A stretch of DNA of 40,016 nucleotides. It comes from Candidatus Woesearchaeota archaeon. Its GTDB lineage: Archaea; Nanobdellota; Nanobdellia; Pacearchaeales; GW2011-AR1. Below the pieces are notes generated by a model. It did not search any database, had not been told where the DNA came from, and saw nothing but the letters and a program-made list of their open reading frames with translations. Location of the stretch: contig CAZWGF010000002.1 in assembly GCA_964633605.1 (NCBI GenBank), forward strand, positions 1-40,016. The letters are read 5' to 3'. This document shows, piece by piece, positions 1 to 40,016 of this stretch. The first letter of the stretch is position 1. Each line of letters begins with the position of its first letter. A program made the translations under genes and the position numbers.

Positions 1-146
1 GATTCTCTGGGTATTTGCAGTGCTATGCCGTCGCCGTAGCCGTCGCCGTAGCCGTCGCCGTAGCCGTAGCCGTAGCCGTCGCCGTAGCCGTAGCCGGAGC
101 CGTCGCCGTAGCCGTAGCCGGAGCCGGAGCCGGAGGTTAATTCCAT
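1..146 (-). CDS. Gly/Tyr/Asp-rich repeat protein, N-terminal fragment (ORF continues past left edge)
   Basis: ATG at 146-144 with GGGAGG 8 nt upstream. Open to nt 1. Reads MELTSGSGSGYGYGDGSGYGYGDGYGYGYGDGYGDGYGDGIALQIPRE. Overlaps the stop of the upstream gene by 10 nt. Missing from the ORF track only because there is no stop in the window. Confidence 0.6.
   Translation of the reverse strand, partial: MELTSGSGSGYGYGDGSGYGYGDGYGYGYGDGYGDGYGDGIALQIPRE
27..134. repeat. 18 tandem hexamers GCCG(TA/TC/GA)
   Basis: Counted directly: GCCGTC, GCCGTA and GCCGGA units lie back to back from 27 to 134. On the minus strand they are (Y/D/S)-G codon pairs of the edge ORF. Confidence 0.95.
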
Positions 147-2143: not shown

Positions 2144-5100
2144 TTATGGCAGCCGCCTGCGTATACGCTGATAGATGCGTTTTCGCTGGGGATCGTTTGT
2201 GGTTTTCTCCAGTGCTTCATAATCAGTTTGAAGTTGCGTCGCCACCTTATTGAATCGGGTCCGCATAGCTCTTTCCTTGGGCGTGATCTTCTTGGAGGCG
2301 AACTTTCTATTGAGCGTGTCCCTGGCCTTGTAGAACTTGGTGAGCTGGTCTCTGGGTGAATTGGGTTCTCGCATGAACAGTGTACCGAACACAGGTATAT
2401 CGCTGTAATTCCGTGACCCCTGCTGTGAGCCGGAAATCATCCCCCAACCCCTGGCGAACCTACGGAACAAACCGCCCGAGTAACTATCAATCAGATACTC
2501 AGTGCGGGATGGTGACATATTCAGGGCCCTGCCGATTGCTTTCATAGTATCCGTGGTGTACCTGCCGTACTGATCCTCGTCAAGCAAGTGCATTGTGCCA
2601 GGCGGAACGATAGGCCGGCCTGCCCAGTCCTTATTCCGCATAACGTCTACCACAGGCCCAGCCAGTGCCATGCCCGTAATGATATTGCGAGAGCCGAACG
2701 GATTGGACTGGTCGAGCATTTCAACCAGATCATCCGGCAAGGATGTCGGATCTTTCCGGTATGCCGCATCGACTGCGGCAACAGGCAGAGAGGCAAAGAC
2801 GTGGCCCACCTGGAACGGCACCGGCAGGCGCACAACCGTATCAGTTCCGGGCGCTCTAAAGTGCATGTAGTTTACCCGCTCGAAGTCTGCCATGTTCTTC
2901 CACCAGTCCTCATCACGATAGGCATACCACAGGCCGAGTGCTGGGATGGTCAAAGTCCCTATGGCCATAGCCGCCGCACGTCCCCGCGTCTTGGGATCTG
3001 CAAAGGTACGGAATATTTTCTGTGGGCCCTGGATATTGGCATTGTAGAACGGGAATACCTGATTCAACACCTTGGCAATTTTGCCGTGCCGCGTAAAGTT
3101 CGTTGTGACATCCTGGGCAGCATTGAGCGCAAACAAAGAAGCATTAAGTGTCCCCTTACCGAACTTCTCCTCACCGACCTTTAGGGCTGCCTCGAACTCT
3201 GCGATCCTCACGCCAGACTCGGTCACACTGAATAGTTCCCGAGCCGCCTGTATTGGGTGTGCTACGGTCTTGATGACGTACTTACCCATTTTTGTACGGT
3301 CCAGCAACATCTCGGCACGCAGGTTCTTGGCTGCTACACGGTCGTGCATGAGCTGGCCGGACATTTCGCCACCAAGAGCTTTGAAGTGTCGCGCCGCTTC
3401 AGTCCCCCGGATATCTGAAACAACACCCCTGGCTGCTGAGATCGCGCCACCTTTTGCGTGTTCTGCCGTCACCCCAAAGGTCGAAGCATCTCGCACAAAG
3501 TTACGAATCAGGCCAAAGCCGGGATTCAATCCTGTTGCTCCCAGTCGTCGTAATCGTGTAGCGCCACCAACTGTAGCGTTTAGCCATGGAGGCAATGAGT
3601 ATTGATCTAAAGCCATAACGGTCTGGAATACGTCCTTATCGAGCTGAATGAATTCGCGTTTGCCCTCGGCATTGATAATGGGAATGATATTGTCCTTACC
3701 CCAGTACTGGGCAGCGTTGGAGTAAACCGTCAACATTTCATCCCATCTTTCTTTGAGTGCTTCAGGATCTACGTCAGGTAGGTCGCCCAGGTCGATCCCA
3801 AGCTTATCTTCGATGATTTTAAGAACGTCGCCTTTGATCTGTTCTACGGAGAAATTGGTCGCCGTCCGGGGCGTGGGTACTTTTTCGCCAAACTGATGCC
3901 CGCCAGGCTGATTGACTACCTTGGCTATCGCCTGGGCAACCATTGTCTTATGCGCGATCGAGATAAGCCTTTCGGCCTGCGTTAACATGGCCTCTATTGG
4001 TTCCATGAACTCTCGGCCACTGCCAGACAAGACATTGATCGGCTTGGAGTGCGTGCGGAATCCCTTTCCGGATCCGCTTGCGATTTTGACTTCACCCCAA
4101 TCAAAGATCCGTAAGAACGGAATATAAACCGGGTTTAGCGTCCTAATGGTCTTGATTGTATCCTCGCTTATGGCGCCTGCTTCACCCATGTAATCCAACA
4201 CGCGGCCATTCCATGAAGTTACCTCGTCAAGCACGTCATCGTAAATCTTGGCGGTTTCATCGCTGGTATCTTTGATCACAAACTCGGCATCAGCCTTGGA
4301 TATGCCAGGGTTCTTGCCCCGCCTTATCAGATCGAGAGCTCGCGTGGCCACAGCGTACTGCACCCATTCTGTGATGTGGTCAATGGGCTTGAATATCTCG
4401 GTCAGGCCGGGCCCGGTAGTGTAGCCAGATAGGTTCGTCGTGCTGTGTAGAATGAACTTCCGTGCCACTGCAGGCGCCTTATCAGCATATGCAACGGCCA
4501 AGGTGTACGGGTTACGCTCCGGGGGCAGATCAAACAGGCCAGCCGTAATGAGTCGCCGTTTTAGGGGCGCCAGTTCGTCGATAAAGTTTACCTCAGTCCA
4601 CAGGCTTGCCCGCTCCATGCGTTCGCCTAGCGTTCCCCTGAATGGCTTGCGGTTGATCATGGAAGATATCCGGCCCCTCGCGCCCTGGTGCCTCCATGTG
4701 CTGATCATCTGTCGCAACTTGTTCAGATTGCGGTTTGTGTCTGGGTGTTTGGGCAGGAACACATCCTTGAACCATTTGTCCATGTTGGGTGCAATGCTCG
4801 CAGTGTCGCCACCTGTTAGGTATTCCCGCATGTACTCGGCCCAACCCTCAGACTTGTAGCCGCCCACGGGCTTGCGGTTGCCGTACAGGGCAACGCCCAT
4901 ATCGAACAGTTCCTTGCCGATCTCGGTGCTGGCTGGGTGCTTGCTGATCCTATCCCCATCGATGTGGTCTATGTGGTGCCCTACCTCATGCGTGGCTGTG
5001 GTGATGGAACGGACATCCTGCAACCGGATACTTTTGCCAAACGGATGATACCAGCCAAGTGCATGGGCCATCCTGAACGTTGCCTTGCCGCGGATAGGTA

Positions 5101-7915
5101 TCTGGAATGCACGCTGGGCAAATGCGATGATATCACGCGATGGGACGGGCTTGACGGGGCCGCCGGCGTCCATGGCCACCTTGATCCGGCCACGGTCGAT
5201 TTCGTTCTGTGATACCACTGTCGAGGGTGAGGACTCATCGCCCAGGTAGGCCGGGCTTTTCTCTCGGGGCCATCTGGCATCGGCCTCTATATCGCTCTGG
5301 AAGTCTGCTTGGGGCTCAGTACCAGCCCATGCGTAAACAGGCGTCTTGTCCTGCATGAAGTTTTTGTCAACGATCTTGGCGTTTACCATGCGGCCCAGAA
5401 CCTCGGCGTTCTCCTTGCTTGCTTCCTTGCTGCCTGTCCACTGCTCGGCCGTCATCCACGTTCGGGCCGGGAGTTTGTTGCCCAGGATGAATAATGGGCT
5501 TCTTGACGCAACGTCGTCTGTCCTCAACAGGTCTGCATTGACCAGCATCTGTGCCAACTGTTGGGGAAAGGGCTTACTGCCTGCCGATACACGCACGGGC
5601 GTTTTCTGTGCAACGTTGGGTGTCAGTACGGTACTGACTGCATTCACGGGCATGGTTACGGTTTGCGTCTGGCCCTTGGGGCTCCGGGTCAATATGGGCC
5701 GTAGTTCATCGCCTTCTGGCAGGAACATCTTGATCTTTGTTTCGCCCCTCGATGCGTGCAGCTCCAGGGCATCTTTGAGGAAATTCGAGTTGACGGCAAC
5801 TACCTGCTCTGCCCCGTCCTTCACGCCGATCTGCGCTGCGATCCCCGCCTCATGGCCTGCACTGGCAAAGCCTATGGTTCCGTCAGGGTTCTTCATGATG
5901 GCGATTGTGGGTATTTCGCCCTTACCGCTCGGCGCGGCTACTGCTGCCTGTCTGACCTGCTGCCAGGTCTTGCGAGTGTTCAACTCGATTCCATCGGCTG
6001 CCTTGACCTCGGGAATGATTGCCTTGTAGTCTGGGAAGTTGCCCCGCGTTTCGTCCTTTGCGAGTGTCCGTTGCTTCAGCTCACCCTTCTTGAACGCCGC
6101 CGGTTCGTCGTAGAGTCCGTCCGGGCCCCAATCGCCTTTGAGGATGTACGCACGCTGTCCGTCCGTGACGACAAGGTCCTTACCCTTGACCAGGGCCCCG
6201 TCAACTGCATACCTGGAGGCCTTTTTAGCCTTGCCCTTACCGAGCCTACTGAACAGGTTCTTGGCTGGTGCAGGATATGACGGGGTAGCGATTGCGGGGG
6301 GCTTTCCGGGCTTGGTCTTGGCCAATGGCTTTAGCTTGGCCATTTCGGATGCGACCTTAGCCATCGCCTTCTCATTGCCTGGCAGTGCAAACAGTTGAGC
6401 GTCTGGTATGCCGGTGGGGAACTCAACTGCCACAGTATGGTAGGCTTCGTCCACCTTGTCCGCATCTTTGAATGGCTTTGTTGTTAGTTTCGTACTTGGG
6501 TCATTCGCCCACGCCTGGTAATCCGTTATGATTTCGTTGGCTTGTTCTCGGGAAAGAGCTGTAACTGTTTCCCCCGGTTGTTGCGTATCAATTGGCTGAG
6601 GCGTAATCGGGGCCGGGGCCGTCGGACTGACGGGCGGCGGGGTGATTTGCGTGGCATCTGGTGTCCCCTTTAGTTGTAGTTGCTGCTCTTGCGGTTGCAA
6701 TTGCTGGATGATTGCCGCACTCTTCTGGTTAGCTGGAACTCCGGCAGCCTTGGCCCTGGCCTGGATCTGCTTTCGGGAGAGCTTTGTCAGGTCAGTCGTC
6801 GGCTGTTTCGGTGGTTGCTGCGCCAGCGGGATCGGCGCGGGAGGCGTACCCGGTTGCCTGGTGGCCAGGGGGTGCTTTCCGAAGTCCTTTAATGGCGGTT
6901 GCTTCACCTTTTTGGGAGTAACCCGCTTTGGATCCAAACCTTGATATTTCACCCGGACGGCATCCCATCTGGTACGATCCCCTGTCTTTTTCCAGTGTTT
7001 TATTGCTGCATCGATCTCGGCCCGGGCACTCTGCCGCGTTACCTGCGCGTGGGTCTTGGCCGTTTTAGCGGCGCGCAGGCCCCGAACGAACCGGCCCAGT
7101 TTCTCCACTCCGAGCTCGCCGGCGCCGAACATGACACCAATCCCGAACTCGAAGCTGATACCCCCGTAATCCACGGGCTCGTTGTTTATGACCTTGTCCG
7201 AGAATTCCTCACCAGCCTTGCGTGTGGCAAAGGTCAGGCCACTGCCCGCCATCACCTTGAGTGCCCGCTTGCCCGCGATCCGCTTGATCACTGGGGCCGC
7301 TATCTTGCCCGCTGTACTGATCCCGGTCATGAAATTAGCGATATCTCCGGCTGCAATATCCTGCTTTTTGGGCTTGAACCCCGTCATATGGTCAACAATG
7401 CCCGCCAAACTGTCGATCTTGCCGCCACTGACCCGCTTGGCTGCAGCATCGGCCACACCCAGAGTAAGCCCGGAGACGGCCTCTGTGCCCGTATGAAGGA
7501 TACCCTTGCCGATGGTCCTAAATGGAGTCTCTTCCGCCCCCAGCGGTCGCGTAGGAGCCGGAACAGGACGTGGGCGGCCTGGTGCACCGAAGAGTGCCGT
7601 ACCAATATCTGCCGGCGGTGGAGGGGCCTGCTGGATCGTCTCCTGGCCTCGGGGGGCTAGGGGGTCAACAGTGACCGCTGATCCGGTGTCAGTAACGGGG
7701 ATGTCCTGGCCAGCTACGCGGATGGTAGGTGTGCCAGGTCTGGGCATGAGGGCTGCCGTGGCGTTCTTGAGTACATCGGGGTCAATACCGGCGCCTGCTA
7801 ACTCTACCGGGGCATCCAGGGAATACCTGCTGGCCTGGGGAGTTGAAGGGCCGGCGTCAATGGAATATTTACTGGCAGGCTGCTCGGCGTCCAGTGAGTA
7901 CTTGCTGATAGCCAT
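2144..7915 (-). CDS. giant multidomain (polyvalent-type) internal virion / ejection protein
   Basis: Uninterrupted 1923-aa ORF abutting the upstream gene (stop 7918, start 7915). Domains seen: aa 4-35 three SKYSLDA-like motifs; aa 375-406 HeH/SAP-like LSRKQIQARAKAAGVPANQKSAAIIQQL; aa 568-759 DnaN-like motifs (VVTDGQRAY, GNFPDYKAIIP, TVTMPV); aa 976-981 HEVGHH with downstream EGWAEY; hydrophobic AAAMAIGTLTIPALGLWYAY near the C-terminus. Its position after the fibre and internal-protein genes fits an ejected protein. Function is inferred. Confidence 0.85.
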   Translation of the reverse strand: MAISKYSLDAEQPASKYSIDAGPSTPQASRYSLDAPVELAGAGIDPDVLKNATAALMPRPGTPTIRVAGQDIPVTDTGSAVTVDPLAPRGQETIQQAPPPPADIGTALFGAPGRPRPVPAPTRPLGAEETPFRTIGKGILHTGTEAVSGLTLGVADAAAKRVSGGKIDSLAGIVDHMTGFKPKKQDIAAGDIANFMTGISTAGKIAAPVIKRIAGKRALKVMAGSGLTFATRKAGEEFSDKVINNEPVDYGGISFEFGIGVMFGAGELGVEKLGRFVRGLRAAKTAKTHAQVTRQSARAEIDAAIKHWKKTGDRTRWDAVRVKYQGLDPKRVTPKKVKQPPLKDFGKHPLATRQPGTPPAPIPLAQQPPKQPTTDLTKLSRKQIQARAKAAGVPANQKSAAIIQQLQPQEQQLQLKGTPDATQITPPPVSPTAPAPITPQPIDTQQPGETVTALSREQANEIITDYQAWANDPSTKLTTKPFKDADKVDEAYHTVAVEFPTGIPDAQLFALPGNEKAMAKVASEMAKLKPLAKTKPGKPPAIATPSYPAPAKNLFSRLGKGKAKKASRYAVDGALVKGKDLVVTDGQRAYILKGDWGPDGLYDEPAAFKKGELKQRTLAKDETRGNFPDYKAIIPEVKAADGIELNTRKTWQQVRQAAVAAPSGKGEIPTIAIMKNPDGTIGFASAGHEAGIAAQIGVKDGAEQVVAVNSNFLKDALELHASRGETKIKMFLPEGDELRPILTRSPKGQTQTVTMPVNAVSTVLTPNVAQKTPVRVSAGSKPFPQQLAQMLVNADLLRTDDVASRSPLFILGNKLPARTWMTAEQWTGSKEASKENAEVLGRMVNAKIVDKNFMQDKTPVYAWAGTEPQADFQSDIEADARWPREKSPAYLGDESSPSTVVSQNEIDRGRIKVAMDAGGPVKPVPSRDIIAFAQRAFQIPIRGKATFRMAHALGWYHPFGKSIRLQDVRSITTATHEVGHHIDHIDGDRISKHPASTEIGKELFDMGVALYGNRKPVGGYKSEGWAEYMREYLTGGDTASIAPNMDKWFKDVFLPKHPDTNRNLNKLRQMISTWRHQGARGRISSMINRKPFRGTLGERMERASLWTEVNFIDELAPLKRRLITAGLFDLPPERNPYTLAVAYADKAPAVARKFILHSTTNLSGYTTGPGLTEIFKPIDHITEWVQYAVATRALDLIRRGKNPGISKADAEFVIKDTSDETAKIYDDVLDEVTSWNGRVLDYMGEAGAISEDTIKTIRTLNPVYIPFLRIFDWGEVKIASGSGKGFRTHSKPINVLSGSGREFMEPIEAMLTQAERLISIAHKTMVAQAIAKVVNQPGGHQFGEKVPTPRTATNFSVEQIKGDVLKIIEDKLGIDLGDLPDVDPEALKERWDEMLTVYSNAAQYWGKDNIIPIINAEGKREFIQLDKDVFQTVMALDQYSLPPWLNATVGGATRLRRLGATGLNPGFGLIRNFVRDASTFGVTAEHAKGGAISAARGVVSDIRGTEAARHFKALGGEMSGQLMHDRVAAKNLRAEMLLDRTKMGKYVIKTVAHPIQAARELFSVTESGVRIAEFEAALKVGEEKFGKGTLNASLFALNAAQDVTTNFTRHGKIAKVLNQVFPFYNANIQGPQKIFRTFADPKTRGRAAAMAIGTLTIPALGLWYAYRDEDWWKNMADFERVNYMHFRAPGTDTVVRLPVPFQVGHVFASLPVAAVDAAYRKDPTSLPDDLVEMLDQSNPFGSRNIITGMALAGPVVDVMRNKDWAGRPIVPPGTMHLLDEDQYGRYTTDTMKAIGRALNMSPSRTEYLIDSYSGGLFRRFARGWGMISGSQQGSRNYSDIPVFGTLFMREPNSPRDQLTKFYKARDTLNRKFASKKITPKERAMRTRFNKVATQLQTDYEALEKTTNDPQRKRIYQRIRRRLP

Positions 7916-7917
7916 GA

Positions 7918-8955
7918 CTACCTCTTTCGCTTTTTCGCCGCTGTGGTAGGTTCCTCAAGCTCCAAGCCCTCAAAGAACGCCTCTATCTGCGTCCTATAGT
8001 TCTCAAAACGCGGATCTGTGGAATACAGAATGTTCTTGAGTCTGCCAGTGGAGAAGCCGGGCAGGTCCCGCTCCTTGAAAAACTCCTGCCGAAGCTCTTG
8101 CATCTCTTGGAGCAATGGCATGGGCATTTGCCTCACCGACGCATTGCCAGGCTCAAGGCCGAGATTGATCAGGATCGCCGTTTTCTTCTGCTCTACTGGA
8201 AGAGTTGAGATTAGCCGCTCAAACTCCGTGCGATCAGGCACGCTGAATCCGTCGGCCTGGGCCTGGATCAGGGCTGCCTTGCCCTTTTCCGTCTTGATCA
8301 GGGCCTTCCTGTACTTCTTGTCAATGATCTGGTCCTGCTTGGCCAGCCGGAATTGCTTGCGCTGGAGTGGAGTCATCTGCCCCATGAGCTTGGTACGCTT
8401 TTCGGACTCAAGAGCCAGGGCTGTCTGGTATTGGTTCATTGGTGATGGCTTGCCCACTTGCCCGGTCAGTGCATCCGTGTGCCTGGTTCCTGCCCTGGTT
8501 GCTTCAGTGCGGGCCTGCTGCCCCTCGATCTGGCCAGGGGTTACTTGTTCAGAAATCTTAGTACCAGATAGCGTAGACTGTATCTGTGCCTCAGTAAGGC
8601 CAGTCCTTGCAGACAGCGCCTTGAGCTGTTCGGGTGCTAATTGCTTGGAGATGCCGGTCTGCGTCTGTGTTGCTTCCGTTCTGGCCCCGAGGTTCTCTAC
8701 CTGCGCCTTCTGCACTGGGTTGAGGATCCGCTGCAACTGGATCTGCAATCCCATCTGCGTGCCCTGGGGCGTGAGCAGTTCGCCAAGCCCTTCCTCGATT
8801 GTGCCGTTACTGAGCCGTTCGGATATGGTTTGCAGGTCTTTGCGAACTCGCTCTTGTTCGATCTTTTGGGTGAAGGCAGAAAAGAAACCCTCTGCGCCAG
8901 TCCTAAGACCAGTTGCCAATGGGTGTGGTGTCTCTGGTATCACTGTCAGAGCCAT
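7918..8955 (-). CDS. Q/T-rich helical internal virion protein (putative)
   Basis: 345 aa; AAGGAG RBS (CATAAGGAGTACAAGCTATG). Low-complexity helical sequence. Position lies between the S74-domain protein and the giant protein. Confidence 0.75.
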   Translation of the reverse strand: MALTVIPETPHPLATGLRTGAEGFFSAFTQKIEQERVRKDLQTISERLSNGTIEEGLGELLTPQGTQMGLQIQLQRILNPVQKAQVENLGARTEATQTQTGISKQLAPEQLKALSARTGLTEAQIQSTLSGTKISEQVTPGQIEGQQARTEATRAGTRHTDALTGQVGKPSPMNQYQTALALESEKRTKLMGQMTPLQRKQFRLAKQDQIIDKKYRKALIKTEKGKAALIQAQADGFSVPDRTEFERLISTLPVEQKKTAILINLGLEPGNASVRQMPMPLLQEMQELRQEFFKERDLPGFSTGRLKNILYSTDPRFENYRTQIEAFFEGLELEEPTTAAKKRKR

Positions 8956-8967
8956 AGCTTGTACTCC

Positions 8968-9993
8968 TTATGCCGCTTCTAATTGTGGAATCAGCCTACC
9001 ATAGTCAATGGCCAGGTGATCGTTTACTTTGACAACGCAGTCGGGGTGCCGTTCCTCTACGTCCTGGGCGATCAGGCCAAAGCCTTGACCGTATAGGCCG
9101 TACTTCTCGCCGGCCTCTGCATTCCATGTCCAGGTAGTAACCCGCATACCATCCATCTCGCCCTGGACCTCGATATTGTCCTTTAAGCGTTCATCGCTCA
9201 AGGCCGCCGCTATCGCTGACGCACCGGCCTGGCCAGCAAACGCGCCAGCCCCCTGCCCTGCCCCGCCGACGAGCGAGCCGAGCAACTGCGTGGCCAGGGG
9301 TGTCTTTGTCGTGGTAAACGGTTCAGCAAACTGGCCACCTAACAGCCCAAGGGCGAGCTGGATCTGTGACGACTTCAAAGGATCTTGAAGCTCAAACTTC
9401 TGCCGCTCGCCAAGGAGTTGTTCCGATTTAATACCGCGTTCTTCCCTGCCGACTCCGCTTAGAAAGTTCTGCAAGTCGAGCAGTGCCATGTTAGCGCCAA
9501 TTTGCTGCTGATTCTGCTGTAGACCAAATGGCAGGGCTTGGGCCTGGGATGCCAGCGTAAATTCCTGCAGTGCGTCGGTTATGGCATCCCGAGATGCGCT
9601 TGAACTCGTTGCGTCCAGTGCCCCGAACCTATTGGCCACGCCCTCCAGCTTGTTATCCAGGAATCCTTGACCGCCCGCCAGGATCTGGGAAATGATATCA
9701 TTGCCGGATTGCGGATTGGCAATGCCTTGCAGATTTGCCCCGACCTGCTGGCCCAACTGAGGGGCTTGATTGAACACTGACTGCTGTAGTGATGTGGGGC
9801 CTTCAGTGAATGCTCCGGGGAACGTTCGGCCGGGCTGACCAATTGCGCTACCGCCTGTCTGGCCAAGCACTAGGCTTGAAAGTGCTTGCTCGATACCGCT
9901 TTGGTTTGGCGTGAGGGATGACACCTGCCCGCTTACTTGCTTAGGTGGATCGAATCCCAGTATGTCGTCGAATATTTTGTCAAAGAGTCCCAC
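8968..9993 (-). CDS. Gly/Gln-rich fibre/needle-like protein with C-terminal S74-type intramolecular chaperone domain
   Basis: GTG start with AGGAGAATAAC upstream. The C-terminus ALSDERLKDNIE...GLIAQDVEERHPDCVV...AIDYGRL matches the SDxRxK...IAQ(D/E)V...(D/E)Y signature of the endosialidase-type auto-cleaving chaperone. Confidence 0.8.
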   Translation of the reverse strand: MGLFDKIFDDILGFDPPKQVSGQVSSLTPNQSGIEQALSSLVLGQTGGSAIGQPGRTFPGAFTEGPTSLQQSVFNQAPQLGQQVGANLQGIANPQSGNDIISQILAGGQGFLDNKLEGVANRFGALDATSSSASRDAITDALQEFTLASQAQALPFGLQQNQQQIGANMALLDLQNFLSGVGREERGIKSEQLLGERQKFELQDPLKSSQIQLALGLLGGQFAEPFTTTKTPLATQLLGSLVGGAGQGAGAFAGQAGASAIAAALSDERLKDNIEVQGEMDGMRVTTWTWNAEAGEKYGLYGQGFGLIAQDVEERHPDCVVKVNDHLAIDYGRLIPQLEAA

Positions 9994-25461: not shown

Positions 25462-27483
25462 CTATTTCAGTGCTTTCTGTCTGCGTCTACGACCTTTTGT
25501 GCTTTGCTTCTTGTCGTTGGCAGTTGTCTGGCTCGCCTGGCTCAAGGCTGCCTGGGTCTGGGCCCGCATTAGCTCGACCTTGGCCTTTCGCTCTGCCAGG
25601 TCCATGAGTTGCTCATTGTTGAGGTTCAGCAGCTCTCCGGCGGTCTGTGCGTTCTTGAGTGCCACGGAGGACTTATTCACCTGGATGTCTGAGATGTCCT
25701 CGCGGGCCCTGGCCACCTTGGCTGCTGTCTCGGCCTGAACAAGCTTATTGATCTGCTCTTGCTCTTGTTGCTGCTTTTGGGCCGCCTGGTCACGCTGCTG
25801 CTCACGCTGCTTGATACGTGCCATGAACTGCGGTTTCTTCTGAAGGTTTGAGGACTCTATGATGTCGCTAATGGTAATGACTTCTGCTGCGTCAGGATAC
25901 AAGCTGCGAATCTCTGTCAATTCACGCATGTTTGACTGCTGCTGGTTCTCTGTAAGAAGCCCCTCGGTAGGATTGCAGTCGTAATAAATCATATCATCTG
26001 CGTAAAACTCTTTGACCGGCATCTCGTTAATCATTCGTTGTACGCGGATCGGGTCTTGCCATATCTGATTAAGCCTGGCCTGTTTCCTTCCGACCTGCTG
26101 TTTGGCTATCCTGAAGCCCTCAAATAGTCCCTGGTGTCCGGTCAAGGCCTGGCCGGTCCTGTGGCGGCTTAGGATCGCTGGGATGTCGCCGGTATCAGTA
26201 CCGAAGATTTCCTCATTCATCCCGCCAACGTCGGTTTCCTCTTTGTCCATGAGTGTCAGCATCTGGAAGAATCCGGGCGGAATGTCCGGGGTCGGTGCCT
26301 GCCAAAACGCATCCGTTAGCTGGCCCTCGAAGTCATCTCGCACCTCGATAACCTTGCCTTGACCAGACTGGAAAACGTCCTTGGGGTTCTTTAGGGAGCC
26401 CTCTTTGTACAGCCGGTAGGTGGTCAACTGGGATTCAACGATGTCGATTGTCTGATTGATCCTTCTGTTGCGTGCCTTCTGGGGATCCCTAAGAATCCTC
26501 ACGAAAGACTGAAGCTTGAGTTCTTCGCGGTCCATCTCACTGACCCACTCACCGGGGAACCACACGACGTTGTAGTCGTCAAGGGCCAGCGGGTTTATAT
26601 CGTTCCACACGGGTTCGCTGTCCACGTAGATGGTAAGCTTAACCTTGTTTATCGGCTTCTTGAACCGGCTGAGTGCTGGGGTGCCGTTCGGGAGTTTTGC
26701 GTTTGCGATCAGGAATTCGACTCTGTTCTTGTCGCCGTGCCGCTTTACCAATTCCTTGAATGGTATCTCCTGGGCGGTCAATCGGCTAATGATGGTATCC
26801 TCAAAAGTTGTCTCTCGCCGCCAATATTCCTCGTACAACCGCATTTTTTGCTGTCTGGCATATCCGTGGTTGTGATTGTAGTCCCACCTTTGCGTGCCCT
26901 GGCCGTGCGGGATCTTATTGATGTCGTCTGCATTCTCGGGAAGGAGCTGCAATGCCGTCGATTCGTGCATGTACCGGCCTGTTTGGTAGTAGGTGCAGTC
27001 GCTTAGATCCGTAAAGGTCAGGGCCGGATCCAGCAGGAATTGATTGTAGGCCAGGCGGGCGTACCGGAAAAAGCCGAGACGGTCCCGGTGAATCTCCATG
27101 AGATTGCTGCCAGAAACTAATTGGCCCATCTTGAAGCAGTCTGACATGACGCCATAACCGCCGAATAATGACATTTGCTGCGTGATGAGTGCTGTATGCT
27201 GCCGTGCGGATTCGTTGTCCTCACTGCCAATGGGAGACATCTTCAGGATGTGCCGGTTGCGGATCTCATAGCCCGACAACAGCTTTACCTGCCGTTTCGT
27301 CTTGTTGATTACATAGATCGGCCTGCCGGTGCGCCTCGCAAACTCTTCGTCGTCCTTGCTGTTCTGTGCGCCCAGGTACATCTCGGTATCGACGGCGCCC
27401 TCGTCCAGGAAACCGCTCCATCCTTGCCGGGCAAAGTCGTATCTGTCCTCTCGCTCCGATTTAAGGTCATTCATCTCTGACAT
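25462..27483 (-). CDS. portal protein
   Basis: 673 aa directly after TerL (TGA 27487, AAGGTG RBS, ATG 27483). Size and position are typical. Long helical Q/A/K-rich C-terminal tail (about the last 110 aa), like barrel-bearing portals. Confidence 0.85.
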   Translation of the reverse strand: MSEMNDLKSEREDRYDFARQGWSGFLDEGAVDTEMYLGAQNSKDDEEFARRTGRPIYVINKTKRQVKLLSGYEIRNRHILKMSPIGSEDNESARQHTALITQQMSLFGGYGVMSDCFKMGQLVSGSNLMEIHRDRLGFFRYARLAYNQFLLDPALTFTDLSDCTYYQTGRYMHESTALQLLPENADDINKIPHGQGTQRWDYNHNHGYARQQKMRLYEEYWRRETTFEDTIISRLTAQEIPFKELVKRHGDKNRVEFLIANAKLPNGTPALSRFKKPINKVKLTIYVDSEPVWNDINPLALDDYNVVWFPGEWVSEMDREELKLQSFVRILRDPQKARNRRINQTIDIVESQLTTYRLYKEGSLKNPKDVFQSGQGKVIEVRDDFEGQLTDAFWQAPTPDIPPGFFQMLTLMDKEETDVGGMNEEIFGTDTGDIPAILSRHRTGQALTGHQGLFEGFRIAKQQVGRKQARLNQIWQDPIRVQRMINEMPVKEFYADDMIYYDCNPTEGLLTENQQQSNMRELTEIRSLYPDAAEVITISDIIESSNLQKKPQFMARIKQREQQRDQAAQKQQQEQEQINKLVQAETAAKVARAREDISDIQVNKSSVALKNAQTAGELLNLNNEQLMDLAERKAKVELMRAQTQAALSQASQTTANDKKQSTKGRRRRQKALK

Positions 27484-30735: not shown

Positions 30736-31254
30736 TCAGTCAACGATGTACCAGCCATCGGTGATCATCTCGACTTGGGACGGCAACCACCCGCATATCC
30801 AATCCCCGTTTCCTGCGTGCATGGCAAAGTACGGTGGACAATGCAGTGGCACGTCCTCACCGCTAAACTTGGCTGTACGATCATTGACCTTGCGTGCAGT
30901 CCCTTGGGTGTTGAACGGTGGTAGATCCAAAGTAGGCTGCATGACGACAAACTGATCTTTGGCATACCAATCACGGAATGCGATCTTGAGGCCCTTCTTG
31001 GCCGCCTCAATGGCGAGCCCGAACATCATGCGGTCTGTGCGGCGGTAGGCGTTATCGGCAACATTCTTTGGACTCCATGAGATATAGTTCTCATGGTCTG
31101 GATGGTTACTGTTCGGGCTGTCCAGGTATTCAACCAGGTATCCATCATCAACTGGGTCTTCGCCTTCTGGGATTTCCCAACCACGGTACTGATTGTACTG
31201 GCCTCTGGTCATTGCTCTCATTGCGACTAGTTTCACTCCAATGTACTTTTCCAT
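30736..31254 (-). CDS. DUF2829 (Tad2-like) domain protein with N-terminal YxVEY...ISWSPK domain
   Basis: 172 aa. The C-terminal half MFGLAIEAAKKGLKIAFRDW...PPYFAMHAGNGDWICGWLPSQVEMITDGWYIVD fits the DUF2829 pattern (F..A...K.G.k..R..W ... W.psq.D....DW.iv). Recollection only, not searched. Confidence 0.55.
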   Translation of the reverse strand: MEKYIGVKLVAMRAMTRGQYNQYRGWEIPEGEDPVDDGYLVEYLDSPNSNHPDHENYISWSPKNVADNAYRRTDRMMFGLAIEAAKKGLKIAFRDWYAKDQFVVMQPTLDLPPFNTQGTARKVNDRTAKFSGEDVPLHCPPYFAMHAGNGDWICGWLPSQVEMITDGWYIVD

Positions 31255-39625: not shown

Positions 39626-40016
39626 ACATCAACGGCGAAGAAATTACATTGGATCAGGTGGATAAGATGAAGGTTAATAAAAGACAATGGCGGATTACGC
39701 CATTGGGAAACTGGGTCACGCTCGGAAACGGGGTCAAGCTCGGAAACGGGGTCACGCTCGGAAACGAGGTCACGCTCGGAGACAGGGTCACGCTCGGAAA
39801 CGAGGTCAAGCTCGGAAACGGGGTCAAGCTCGGAAACGGGGTCACGCTCGGAGACTGGGTCAAGCTCGGAGACGGGGTCACGCTCGGAGACGGGGTCACG
39901 CTCGGAGACGGGGTCAAGCTCGGAGACAGGGTCACGCTCGGAAACGAGGTCAAGCTCGGAGACGGGGTCACGCTCGGAGACTGGGTCAAGCTCGGAGACG
40001 GGGTCACGCTCGGAGA
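39622..40016 (+). CDS. hexapeptide-repeat (left-handed beta-helix-like) protein, N-terminal fragment running off the right edge
   Basis: TTG 39622 overlaps the upstream TGA (GAGG 5 nt upstream). Alternative ATG 39667 has AGGTGG upstream. Open to the window end. 17 consecutive (N/D)-x-V-(T/K)-L-G units. Confidence 0.7.
   Translation, partial: MNINGEEITLDQVDKMKVNKRQWRITPLGNWVTLGNGVKLGNGVTLGNEVTLGDRVTLGNEVKLGNGVKLGNGVTLGDWVKLGDGVTLGDGVTLGDGVKLGDRVTLGNEVKLGDGVTLGDWVKLGDGVTLG
39709..40016 (+). repeat. about 17 tandem 18-nt units GG(G/A/T)...GTCA(C/A)GCTCGGA(A/G)AC
   Basis: Read directly. The units differ at only about 4 nucleotide positions. Confidence 0.95.

What the first reader, a model, noticed from the sequence alone, without database searches (positions are those of the whole stretch)
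5639..6214. DnaN (sliding-clamp)-like region embedded in the 1923-aa virion protein
aa ~568-759 read RYAVDGALVKGKDLVVTDGQRAYIL ... RGNFPDYKAIIPEV ... VVAVNSNFLKDALEL ... IKMFLPEGDELRPILTR ... QTVTMPVNA.

E. coli DnaN has, in the same order, YLNGMLFE...VATDGHRLAV, VDGRFPDYRRVLP, IGFNVSYVLDVLNAL, VRMMLTDS...VQI and a terminal YVVMPMRL. The match therefore covers a shortened domain II plus a full domain III of a beta clamp. It sits between an HeH DNA-binding motif and a zincin domain in a protein that, by position, is packaged and ejected.

The window has no phage DNA polymerase. A clamp-like module delivered with the genome could therefore bind host clamp partners or DNA ends. This is speculative.
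Basis: partly seen in the sequence, partly recalled or inferred. Interest (0 to 1): 0.6.

Follow-up and report, generated by a model that had tools for sequence, protein, structure and literature searches.

The report
Cut-down sliding-clamp module in giant phage protein
A roughly 200-residue stretch of a 1923-residue phage "polyvalent" protein is a true but reduced relative of the bacterial DNA sliding clamp that keeps the clamp's partner-docking pocket and has lost the parts that close the ring, so the phage may use it to tether a DNA polymerase or repair enzyme to its DNA.

Summary
Residues 567-759 of the 1923-aa minus-strand ORF (nt 5639-6217) are homologous to the bacterial beta sliding clamp DnaN.

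- **Homology.** A 62-sequence family profile hits solved DnaN structures at E 5.9e-17. An AlphaFold model (pLDDT 88) returns only beta clamps as its top 50 PDB fold matches.
- **What is kept.** The match covers the first sheet of domain II, the FPDY connector and all of domain III. Domain I and the second half of domain II are missing, so the DnaN head-to-tail dimer ring cannot form.
- **Pocket.** All 18 residues of the clamp's peptide-binding pocket have counterparts. They are better conserved than the rest of the module (p = 3e-5).
- **Larger unit.** The module is part of a unit spanning aa ~481-765, with a conserved alpha-beta-beta-alpha element and a strongly basic Lys/Pro linker upstream.
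- **Distribution.** It recurs in about 65 clusters of 1000-3900-aa phage giants. It also occurs as 162-381-aa standalone proteins in phage replication gene clusters, one directly upstream of a family-A DNA polymerase.

Best reading (about 50%): a non-ring docking module that ties a polymerase or other clamp partner to the incoming phage DNA.

I found no description of it in the paper library searched here. I rate it a new variant of a known kind. The contig is mis-binned in an archaeal MAG, so the host is unknown.

The parts
2144..7915 (-). 1923-aa giant 'polyvalent' protein gene that carries the module
   Evidence: ORF list and translation. Pfam LPD38 at aa 1669-1841, E 1.4e-32. It lies at the end of a block of terminase, portal, major head and tail-fibre genes.
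6341..6475 (-). Conserved upstream accessory element (aa 481-525): helix, beta-hairpin, helix, with the motif D-x-x-L-F-A-(L/M)-P-G-x-E-K
   Evidence: It co-occurs with the module in at least 90% of aligned relatives. phmmer detects it in 33 of 76 relatives. AF2 pLDDT is about 80, with H485-495, E497-500, E507-510 and H515-526. It has no similarity to DnaN or to any PDB entry.
6218..6340 (-). Basic Lys/Pro-rich linker (aa 526-566)
   Evidence: Net charge is +11 in the window. The family median is +7 over the 40 residues before the module, with 25% K+R. Part of it is placed with confidence by AF2 (pLDDT about 85).
6038..6217 (-). Remnant of clamp domain II (aa 567-626): three strands carrying the RYA(V/I)xG and (V/A)TDG(Q/R)R motifs
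   Evidence: It aligns to E. coli DnaN 151-180: R568~R152, T584/D585/G586~T172/D173/G174, R588~R176. DnaN 201-226 and 229-233 have no counterpart.
6011..6037 (-). Interdomain connector FPDYKAIIP (aa 627-635)
   Evidence: It aligns to DnaN F241-P249. P628 (~P242) is invariant in 62 of 62 family members.
5639..6010 (-). Complete clamp domain III (aa 636-759), ending in the TMPVN pocket strand
   Evidence: It aligns to DnaN 250-365. Both helices and all strands are predicted with pLDDT above 90. A family member reaches the Pfam DNA_pol3_beta_3 gathering score.
4973..4990 (-). HExxH motif (HEVGHH, aa 976-981) of the putative processing metallopeptidase downstream of the module
   Evidence: Read directly from the sequence. 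There is no Pfam hit for the segment. The region is conserved in 12 of 76 module-bearing relatives.
2393..2911 (-). LPD38 domain, the hallmark of phage-type polyvalent proteins
   Evidence: Pfam PF18857, 113.7 bits against a cut-off of 27. Found again in the genome search at C2:2390-2911.

Best explanation
**What it is.** Residues ~567-759 are a diverged homolog of the bacterial beta sliding clamp. It is reduced to the part that forms the clamp's hydrophobic partner-binding pocket: the first beta-sheet of domain II, the FPDY connector and the whole of domain III.

With an upstream helix-hairpin-helix element and a highly basic Lys/Pro linker, it forms a roughly 285-residue mobile unit (aa ~481-765). 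This unit exists in two forms:
- as standalone proteins in phage replication and recombination gene clusters;
- as a cargo module inside giant phage polyvalent proteins encoded next to virion genes.

**Why it is not a DnaN ring.** It lacks domain I and half of domain II, so it cannot form the DnaN-type head-to-tail dimer ring.

**Proposed mechanism.**
1. The giant protein is packaged and enters the cell with the DNA.
2. It may then be cut by its own metallopeptidase.
3. The module docks a polymerase or another protein that carries a clamp-binding-type peptide in its conserved pocket.
4. The basic linker and the domain-III helices hold the module on DNA.
5. The result is that replication or repair enzymes are tethered to the incoming phage genome without a ring or a clamp loader, as non-ring viral processivity factors do.

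**Shown:** homology, fold, which parts are kept and which are lost, pocket conservation, recurrence, and genomic contexts.

**Inferred:** packaging, proteolytic release, peptide binding, DNA binding, and the direction of the effect (recruiting rather than sequestering).
For: **Homology and fold.** all point to DnaN.

**Pocket.**
- All 18 pocket residues listed in the beta-clamp review PMC11139829 fall in aligned columns.
- They are more conserved than the other 159 aligned columns: 2.89 against 1.97 bits, Mann-Whitney p = 2.9e-5.
- Family residue counts out of 62: T172->T 59, G174->G 59, P242->P 62, M362->M 55, P363->P 57, R152->R 48, R176->R 52, N320->N 49.
- The hydrophobic subsite I stays hydrophobic.
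- The DnaN segments with no counterpart contain no pocket residue.

**Selection.** The module is one of the best-conserved regions between the window protein and its closest relative P0002: 68% identity, against 38-73% for the other regions (only the 41-residue putative HeH segment, at 73%, is higher).

**Recurrence.** It appears in about 65 giant clusters and in 7 IMG/VR loci.

**Link to replication.**
- Standalone P0069 (333 aa, upstream element plus module) lies directly upstream of a family-A DNA polymerase in three contigs.
- Other standalone members sit beside SSB, a PDDEXK nuclease, AAA_24, UDG and an SNF2 helicase.
- In cultured phage Seurat, a 246-aa protein with a similar fold is translationally coupled to the DNA polymerase gene.

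**Polymerase-less phages.** The window contig and two complete module-bearing viral genomes (59.8 kb with terminal repeats, and 58.7 kb) have no PolA, PolB or Pol III alpha. The window does encode a primase/helicase.

**DNA contact.** The linker is basic across the family, median +7.

**Delivery.** An LPD38 giant is present in phi24B virions, and another is needed for efficient infection.
Against:
- The pocket motifs are also the most conserved parts of DnaN in general. They partly drive the alignment, so their conservation is not fully independent evidence of pocket use.
- Three pocket positions changed character in the family: R246->D/E, R365->N and H175->R. The window copy has A589 where the family has L/M. 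Any ligand may therefore differ from the canonical QLxLF.
- No convincing clamp-binding motif was found in the window's proteins or at the C-terminus of the polymerase next to P0069.
- The upstream element could occupy or complete the missing half of domain II, or occlude the pocket.
- The adjacency to PolA comes from one phage lineage.
- The 40-kb contig may be incomplete.
- The host is unknown, because the contig is mis-binned.
Confidence: 0.5

Rival explanations
1. It is a minimal but genuine ring clamp. After release from the giant protein, the roughly 285-residue unit would oligomerise into a closed ring around DNA, for example as a PCNA-like trimer of two-domain protomers. The upstream helix-hairpin-helix would replace the lost half of domain II. 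The ring would then act as a true sliding processivity factor.
For: - The upstream element is always linked to the module and is placed with confidence by AF2 (pLDDT about 80).
- Standalone relatives sit directly before DNA polymerase genes, as real clamps do.
- Short phage proteins of 211-246 aa annotated as sliding clamps share the fold.
- Both DNA-facing helices of domain III are kept, and helix 1 is Arg-rich.
Against: - Adding the upstream element does not improve superposition on DnaN. The query-normalised TM-score falls from 0.67 to 0.52, and longer alignments have rmsd of 16-18 A.
- The element has no sequence similarity to any clamp segment.
- The domain-III side of the DnaN dimer interface is poorly conserved (the I272 column carries 0.96 bits).
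- No clamp loader is evident in the window.
- The domain-II helix that would line the ring is deleted.
Confidence: 0.2
2. It is a decoy or poison directed at the host. The injected module would titrate clamp-binding-motif proteins away from the host clamp. Alternatively, it would cap host beta monomers through its domain-III edge. Either way it would shut down host replication, mismatch repair or a clamp-dependent defence, rather than help phage replication directly.
For: - The pocket is conserved while ring-forming parts are lost, as expected for a competitor.
- Polyvalent proteins are proposed to carry counter-host effectors (PMC5512222).
- Neighbouring cargo in relatives includes methyltransferase and acetyltransferase domains typical of host-modifying or anti-restriction functions.
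Against: - Standalone relatives lie in replication modules next to polymerases, which fits a pro-replication role better.
- A few copies injected per virion would have to compete with hundreds of host clamps (inference).
- The interface residues needed to cap host beta are not conserved.
Confidence: 0.15
3. It is an exapted fold with no clamp-like activity. The domain would serve as a structural spacer, a capsid-packing or portal-docking element, or a docking site for another part of the same giant protein. Its conserved motifs would be kept only for folding.
For: - Many conserved positions are Gly or Pro, which can be structural.
- Several pocket positions have changed (R246->D/E, R365->N).
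- No partner motif was found.
Against: - Surface pocket residues such as R152, R176, N320 and M362 are conserved across members that share only 25-40% identity.
- The same unit persists as a standalone protein outside any giant, in replication neighbourhoods.
Confidence: 0.1
4. The resemblance is due to chance or to convergent low-complexity similarity, not homology.
For: The window sequence alone reaches no Pfam threshold. Its direct PDB hits are weak (E 0.12).
Against: - The family profile reaches E 5.9e-17 against DnaN structures.
- hhalign gives 97-98% probability.
- All of the top 50 fold hits are clamps.
- A family member passes the Pfam gathering score.
Confidence: 0.01

Closest known systems
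Bacterial beta sliding clamp DnaN (Pfam PF00712/PF02767/PF02768; e.g. E. coli 1MMI, Stenotrophomonas 7RZM)
   Same: - Homologous fold and sequence over DnaN residues ~147-365.
- The same order of motifs: RYxxNG, ATDGxR, FPDY..IP, N..F/Y and MP at the C-terminus.
- All 18 peptide-pocket positions are present and mostly conservatively kept.
   Different: - No domain I, and no second half of domain II (DnaN 193-195, 201-226 and 229-233 missing), so no DnaN-type dimer ring.
- Embedded in a 1923-aa phage protein beside virion genes, not in a dnaA-dnaN-recF context.
- Carries an extra upstream helix-hairpin-helix and a basic linker.
- Pocket changes: R246->D/E, R365->N and H175->R/Q.
- Near-neutral rather than acidic.
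Phage polyvalent proteins (Iyer, Burroughs, Anand, de Souza, Aravind 2017, PMC5512222), LPD38-type; e.g. phi24B gp47, PTXU04_00025
   Same: - A giant multidomain protein with a C-terminal LPD38 domain and an HExxH motif.
- Encoded at the end of the virion gene block.
- Variable cargo among relatives: methyltransferase, GNAT, LPD14.
   Different: - The 2017 survey never mentions a clamp, DnaN or PCNA domain.
- phi24B, the relative with virion proteomics, has no such module.
- No GenBank phage record matched the module by tblastn, apart from five weak metagenomic hits.
Short phage 'PolIII beta-like' proteins (PHROG 6615; e.g. Escherichia phage Seurat gp31 246 aa, Xanthomonas phage Suba 222 aa, Bacillus phage Sam46 217 aa)
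   Same: - Similar size and a reduced clamp fold (Foldseek BFVD TM 0.59-0.68).
- PHROG 6615 matches the window at E 4.6e-6.
- Like the standalone relatives of this module, Seurat gp31 sits directly upstream of the DNA polymerase gene.
   Different: - These proteins are standalone, not embedded.
- Sequence relationship to this family is not significant for Seurat gp31 (hhalign probability 2%).
- Their function is also untested, as far as the literature searched here shows.
Non-ring clamp-fold processivity factors of herpesviruses (UL42 / UL44 type). Analogy from general knowledge, not tested here.
   Same: As a working model only: a clamp-fold protein that does not encircle DNA, holds its polymerase through a peptide-binding groove equivalent to the clamp pocket, and contacts DNA through a basic surface.
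   Different: - These belong to the PCNA lineage, not the DnaN lineage.
- No sequence or fold comparison with them was run.
- They are standalone replication proteins, not virion-delivered cargo.

Membership tests
Beta sliding clamp DnaN | Significant sequence or profile similarity to DNA_pol3_beta domains | tested here: met
   The family profile hits PDB DnaN at E 5.9e-17. hhalign to E. coli DnaN gives 97.3% probability. A relative reaches the PF02768 gathering score. The window piece alone is below Pfam thresholds.
Beta sliding clamp DnaN | Clamp fold (beta-alpha-beta-beta-beta repeats) | tested here: met
   The AF2 model has pLDDT 88. Its top 50 Foldseek PDB hits are all beta clamps, with probability 1.00.
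Beta sliding clamp DnaN | Three domains (N-terminal, central, C-terminal) in a chain of about 366-380 aa | tested here: not met
   Only DnaN ~147-365 is matched. There is no PF00712 or PF02767 signal. DnaN 193-195, 201-226 and 229-233 are deleted.
Beta sliding clamp DnaN | Head-to-tail homodimer ring via the domain I / domain III interface | tested here: not met
   Domain I, which carries I78, F106 and R103, is absent. The domain-III interface column I272 is poorly conserved (0.96 bits). The actual oligomeric state could not be tested.
Beta sliding clamp DnaN | Hydrophobic clamp-binding-motif pocket (subsites I and II) | tested here: met
   All 18 residues listed in PMC11139829 have aligned counterparts, which are conserved above background. 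Actual peptide binding is not testable with these tools.
Beta sliding clamp DnaN | Works with a clamp loader as the replisome processivity subunit | not testable with these tools
   No clamp loader gene was recognised in the window. Function was not assayed.
Phage polyvalent proteins (LPD38 type) | Very large multidomain protein carrying an LPD domain | tested here: met
   The protein is 1923 aa. LPD38 scores 113.7 bits against a cut-off of 27.
Phage polyvalent proteins (LPD38 type) | Encoded among late or virion genes | tested here: met
   Terminase, portal, major head and tail-fibre genes lie upstream on the same strand. The same order, S74-domain protein then giant, is seen in relative L003.
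Phage polyvalent proteins (LPD38 type) | Zincin-like processing metallopeptidase | tested here: inconclusive
   An HEVGHH motif is present, and the region is conserved in 12 relatives. There is no Pfam match.
Phage polyvalent proteins (LPD38 type) | Packaged in the virion and delivered with the DNA | not testable with these tools
   The only evidence is by analogy: phi24B gp47 (LPD38) was detected in virions by proteomics.
Short phage PolIII-beta-like proteins (PHROG 6615) | Match to the PHROG profile | tested here: met
   E 4.6e-6, with residues 77-220 of the piece matching profile positions 61-211 of 214.
Short phage PolIII-beta-like proteins (PHROG 6615) | Standalone protein of about 210-250 aa in the replication module | tested here: not met
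   The window copy is embedded in a giant protein. Standalone relatives of the same family do exist.

The most novel reading that the evidence does not exclude
Polymerase-less phages inject, together with their genome, a ring-less 'clamp pocket on a basic tether'. This captures the host replicative polymerase, or another clamp-binding enzyme, and places it on the incoming DNA. It would bypass the host clamp and clamp loader to jump-start replication. This would be a new, loader-independent way of hijacking the bacterial replisome, carried as a swappable module in polyvalent proteins.
Probability: 0.3. Interest if true: 0.8.

Novelty: new variant of a known kind. Interest (0 to 1): 0.55.

Why it matters
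The beta clamp is the central hub of bacterial replication and repair, and its pocket is an antibiotic target.

A natural, widespread, minimal version that keeps only the pocket-forming half shows which part of the clamp phages find worth carrying. If it binds host partners, it would be:
- a new class of phage-delivered replisome-hijacking or replisome-blocking tool;
- a ready-made minimal scaffold for studying or screening pocket ligands.

It also adds a replication-type cargo to the catalogue of polyvalent-protein domains, where none of this kind is listed. It links that cargo to standalone phage proteins that sit next to DNA polymerases and whose function is equally untested.

Tried and rejected
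**Self-docking clamp-binding motif.** The conserved upstream 'D-x-x-L-F-A-M-P-G' could in principle be a built-in clamp-binding peptide that docks in the module's own pocket. I do not favour this. AF2 places it as one strand of a beta-hairpin between two helices, and distant members keep a strand-like alternating pattern. Without coordinates I cannot exclude it.

**Upstream element as displaced beta1-alpha1 of domain II, or a remnant of domain I.** There is no sequence support, and adding it brings no gain in structural superposition.

**Scan for clamp-binding motifs in all window proteins and in P0002.** It gave seven hits in the window, about what chance predicts, including QQMSLF inside the portal. 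None is terminal, and P0002 has none. The scan is uninformative.

**Search for the module in cultured phages.**
- tblastn with the window piece found nothing.
- tblastn with a standalone relative found nothing.
- tblastn with the family consensus found only five weak metagenomic fragments.
- phi24B, whose LPD38 giant is known to be in the virion, has no module.

**Host identification.**
- The MAG is archaeal: it has PCNA and PolB, and there is no DnaN in it or in 20 relatives.
- The contig is a composition outlier: 52% GC against 31%, with a tetranucleotide distance five times the median. It is mis-binned.

**Other dead ends.**
- Pfam finds nothing for the putative HeH, zincin, N-terminal and middle segments.
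- Seurat gp31 is not significantly related to the family by sequence.

Full report
**The object.** The window is a 40-kb phage contig whose genes nearly all run on the minus strand.
- It encodes small and large terminase, portal, major head protein, tail and fibre proteins, and a protein carrying an S74-type chaperone domain.
- At the end of this block lies a 1923-aa ORF, nt 2144-7915.
- The giant has a Pfam LPD38 domain at aa 1669-1841 (E 1.4e-32) and an HEVGHH motif at aa 976-981.
- It therefore belongs to the phage 'polyvalent proteins' of Iyer et al. 2017 (PMC5512222).
- The finding's coordinates (5639-6214) translate on the minus strand to aa 568-759.

**Is the clamp resemblance real?** Yes.
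- On its own, the 246-aa piece matches only PHROG 6615, annotated 'DNA polymerase' (E 4.6e-6). In the PDB it matches only two beta clamps, weakly. Pfam gives nothing.
- A full phmmer scan of 1.84 billion cluster representatives found 77 proteins.
- One of these, P0076, is a normal three-domain DnaN by Pfam. It was reached at a library-wide E of 2.9e-4.
- One hit, P0032, is a spurious repeat protein.
- I aligned 62 module sequences without any DnaN (A1). The profile hits 55 distinct PDB beta-clamp sequences, best 5.9e-17, with profile positions 6-193 aligned to DnaN 151-373.
- hhalign gives 98.1% probability to P0076 and 97.3% to E. coli DnaN residues 147-365.
- AlphaFold2 with this alignment gives pLDDT 88.1 and pTM 0.84.
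- The top 50 Foldseek hits in the PDB are all beta clamps (E about 1e-9, probability 1.00, TM about 0.67 normalised to the query).
- In a related 2163-aa giant (L006), the module reaches Pfam's own gathering score for DNA_pol3_beta_3.

**What is kept and what is lost.** I aligned E. coli DnaN to the family model.
- Kept: residues ~147-192 (two to three strands of domain II with the RYYLNG and ATDGHR motifs), the FPDYRRVLP connector, and all of domain III to the C-terminal MPMR strand.
- Lost: DnaN 193-195, 201-226 and 229-233, which form the second half of domain II including its ring-lining helix. All of domain I is also absent.
- The beta-clamp review PMC11139829 lists the peptide-binding pocket:
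  - subsite I: R152, L155, T172, G174, H175, R176, L177, P242, R246, V247, V360, M362;
  - subsite II: H175, N320, Y323, V344, M362, P363, M364, R365.
- All 18 positions fall in aligned columns, and none lies in a deleted segment.
- These columns carry 2.89 bits on average, against 1.97 for the other 159 aligned columns (Mann-Whitney p = 2.9e-5).
- Typical family occupancy out of 62: R 48, I/L, T 59, G 59, R/H, R 52, L/M, P 62, I/V, V/I, M 55, N 49, F/Y, P 57.
- Three positions changed character: R246->D/E, R365->N and H175->R. The window copy has Q587 and A589 at the H175 and L177 positions.
- The domain-III side of the DnaN dimer interface is not well kept (the I272 column carries 0.96 bits). 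Its partner, domain I, does not exist here.
- A DnaN-style ring is therefore excluded. Other oligomers are not.
- One caveat applies. These motifs are also the most conserved in DnaN generally and help to anchor the alignment.

**The module is larger than the finding.**
- Extending the relatives upstream shows a co-conserved block at window aa ~481-525, with consensus QVD.AYRT...D..LFAMPGKEK..AIA.KMAK.
- A Lys/Pro-rich linker follows. It carries +11 net charge in the window and a median of +7 across the family.
- AF2 of aa 472-764 (alignment A2; pLDDT 84.7, pTM 0.72) predicts helix 485-495, hairpin 497-500 and 507-510, and helix 515-526, at pLDDT about 80. Part of the linker reaches about 85.
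- Foldseek still finds only DnaN, but the query-normalised TM-score drops to 0.52.
- The element has no sequence similarity to DnaN or to any PDB entry.
- It is therefore an accessory element of unknown role.
- The module core is near neutral (median charge -1.5), whereas the same part of DnaN is acidic (-7 to -12).

**Where else it occurs.**
- Of the 76 genuine relatives, about 65 are proteins of 1000-3900 aa.
- Twelve to sixteen of them share the window's downstream regions, namely the HExxH region, the C-terminal regions and LPD38. The others have different architectures.
- Their cargo varies: a SAM methyltransferase in P0012, a GNAT in P0002, LPD14 in P0025.
- BFVD also returns a 'Large polyvalent protein-associated domain-containing protein'.
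- Between the window protein and its nearest relative P0002, the module is one of the best-conserved regions: 68% identity, against 38-73% for the other regions, with only the short putative HeH segment (73%) higher.
- Eleven relatives are 162-381 aa.
- P0069 (333 aa) contains both the upstream element and the module. It lies directly upstream of a family-A DNA polymerase, followed by a PDDEXK nuclease and an AAA_24 protein, in three contigs of 43-47 kb.
- P0041 sits with an SNF2 helicase, MutS_I, UDG, PDDEXK and AAA_24.
- P0045 lies near SSB. P0046 lies near a dGTP pyrophosphohydrolase-type gene.
- On a quick tree, standalone and embedded copies are interleaved (branch supports were not assessed).
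- By fold, short phage proteins of 211-246 aa annotated as PolIII-beta-like are similar.
- In phage Seurat, such a gene overlaps the start of the DNA polymerase gene. Its sequence relation to this family is not significant.

**Polymerase content.**
- The window encodes a primase/helicase.
- No PolA, PolB or Pol III alpha hit falls on its contig.
- Seven IMG/VR loci carry the module.
- Two of them are complete genomes with strong matches: G001 (59.8 kb, terminal repeats) and G004 (58.7 kb). Both lack all three polymerase families.
- This is suggestive, but the sample is tiny, and the window contig may be only two-thirds of a genome.

**Delivery.**
- Packaging is inferred from gene position and from relatives.
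- phi24B gp47, an LPD38 giant, is abundant in virions by proteomics and is proposed to be an ejection protein (bioRxiv 10.64898/2026.04.10.717836).
- An LPD38 giant of phage PTXU04 is required for efficient infection.
- phi24B itself lacks the clamp module.

**Mechanism.** I commit, at about 50%, to a non-ring docking or tether module.
- The pocket would hold a polymerase or another clamp-partner peptide.
- The basic linker and the Arg-rich first helix of domain III would contact DNA.
- In giants, the unit would arrive with the genome and help start replication or repair in phages that bring no polymerase.
- The standalone forms next to polymerase genes are what makes me prefer recruitment over sequestration.

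Rivals:
- a minimal ring clamp completed by the upstream element (0.2);
- a decoy or poison against the host clamp network (0.15);
- an exapted structural domain (0.1);
- chance resemblance (0.01).

None of the functional steps is shown.

**Novelty.**
- The polyvalent-protein survey does not mention a clamp, DnaN, PCNA or processivity domain.
- Literature searches found no description of such a module.
- No Pfam family covers the module.
- Other agents of this scan reported the same kind of module in other genomes. Those are unchecked AI notes that I read after forming my view. They agree with it but are not independent evidence.
- I rate it a new variant of a known kind: the clamp fold and polyvalent proteins are both known, while this reduced pocket-only form and its placement are not described.

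**Host caveat.**
- The contig is binned in a 739-kb MAG that is archaeal. It has PCNA and PolB, and there is no DnaN in it or in 20 relatives.
- The MAG's contigs are about 31% GC. This contig is 52% GC and is a tetranucleotide outlier.
- It is almost certainly mis-binned, and the true host is unknown.

Noticed in passing
whole window (contig C2 of G000): The contig sits in a small archaeal MAG. That MAG has PCNA on C12 and PolB on C9, and neither it nor 20 relatives have DnaN. The contig is 52% GC against about 31% for the MAG core, and it is one of the two strongest tetranucleotide outliers. It is very likely mis-binned. C1 (41% GC, carries a PolA), C15, C34 and C37 are also outliers.
   Followed up: yes
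L014:10001-13231 (P0069 and the adjacent PolA): The standalone clamp-like protein and the DNA polymerase encoded right after it begin with nearly the same peptide (MSTMPPIYVKP... and MQSKPIYVKPP...). This may be a shared docking tag. It was seen in one phage lineage only.
   Followed up: no
window 7918-9993 and L003:4564-6578: The gene order 'protein with Peptidase_S74 chaperone domain, then a 314-345-aa protein, then the giant' is the same in the window and in a distant module-bearing phage (G001).
   Followed up: partly
window 30736-31254 (-): A 172-aa protein has a Tad2-like (Thoeris anti-defence 2) domain, Pfam E 1.4e-13. This suggests a bacterial rather than archaeal host.
   Followed up: no
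window 25462-27483 (-), portal aa 103-108: The portal protein contains QQMSLF, a perfect clamp-binding-motif-like peptide. It is probably chance, since about two such hits are expected in 11,000 residues.
   Followed up: partly
window 1-140 and 39860-40016: Both contig ends consist of short tandem repeats: GCCGTA/GCCGTC hexamers at the left end, and a repeat of about 36-45 nt (CTCGGAGACGGGGTCA...) at the right end. There is no terminal overlap, so the contig may be broken at repeats.
   Followed up: partly
P0032 (3315 aa): This protein is made of 31 near-identical 105-aa repeats. It scored E 1.6e-18 against the module only by summing weak repeat hits, so it is a false positive of the representative search.
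   Followed up: partly
L006:7250-13741 (2163-aa giant), aa 660-704: There is a weak FtsK_gamma (winged-helix DNA-binding) hit upstream of the clamp module, at the position where the window protein has its putative HeH motif. A DNA-binding element ahead of the module may be a recurring theme.
   Followed up: no
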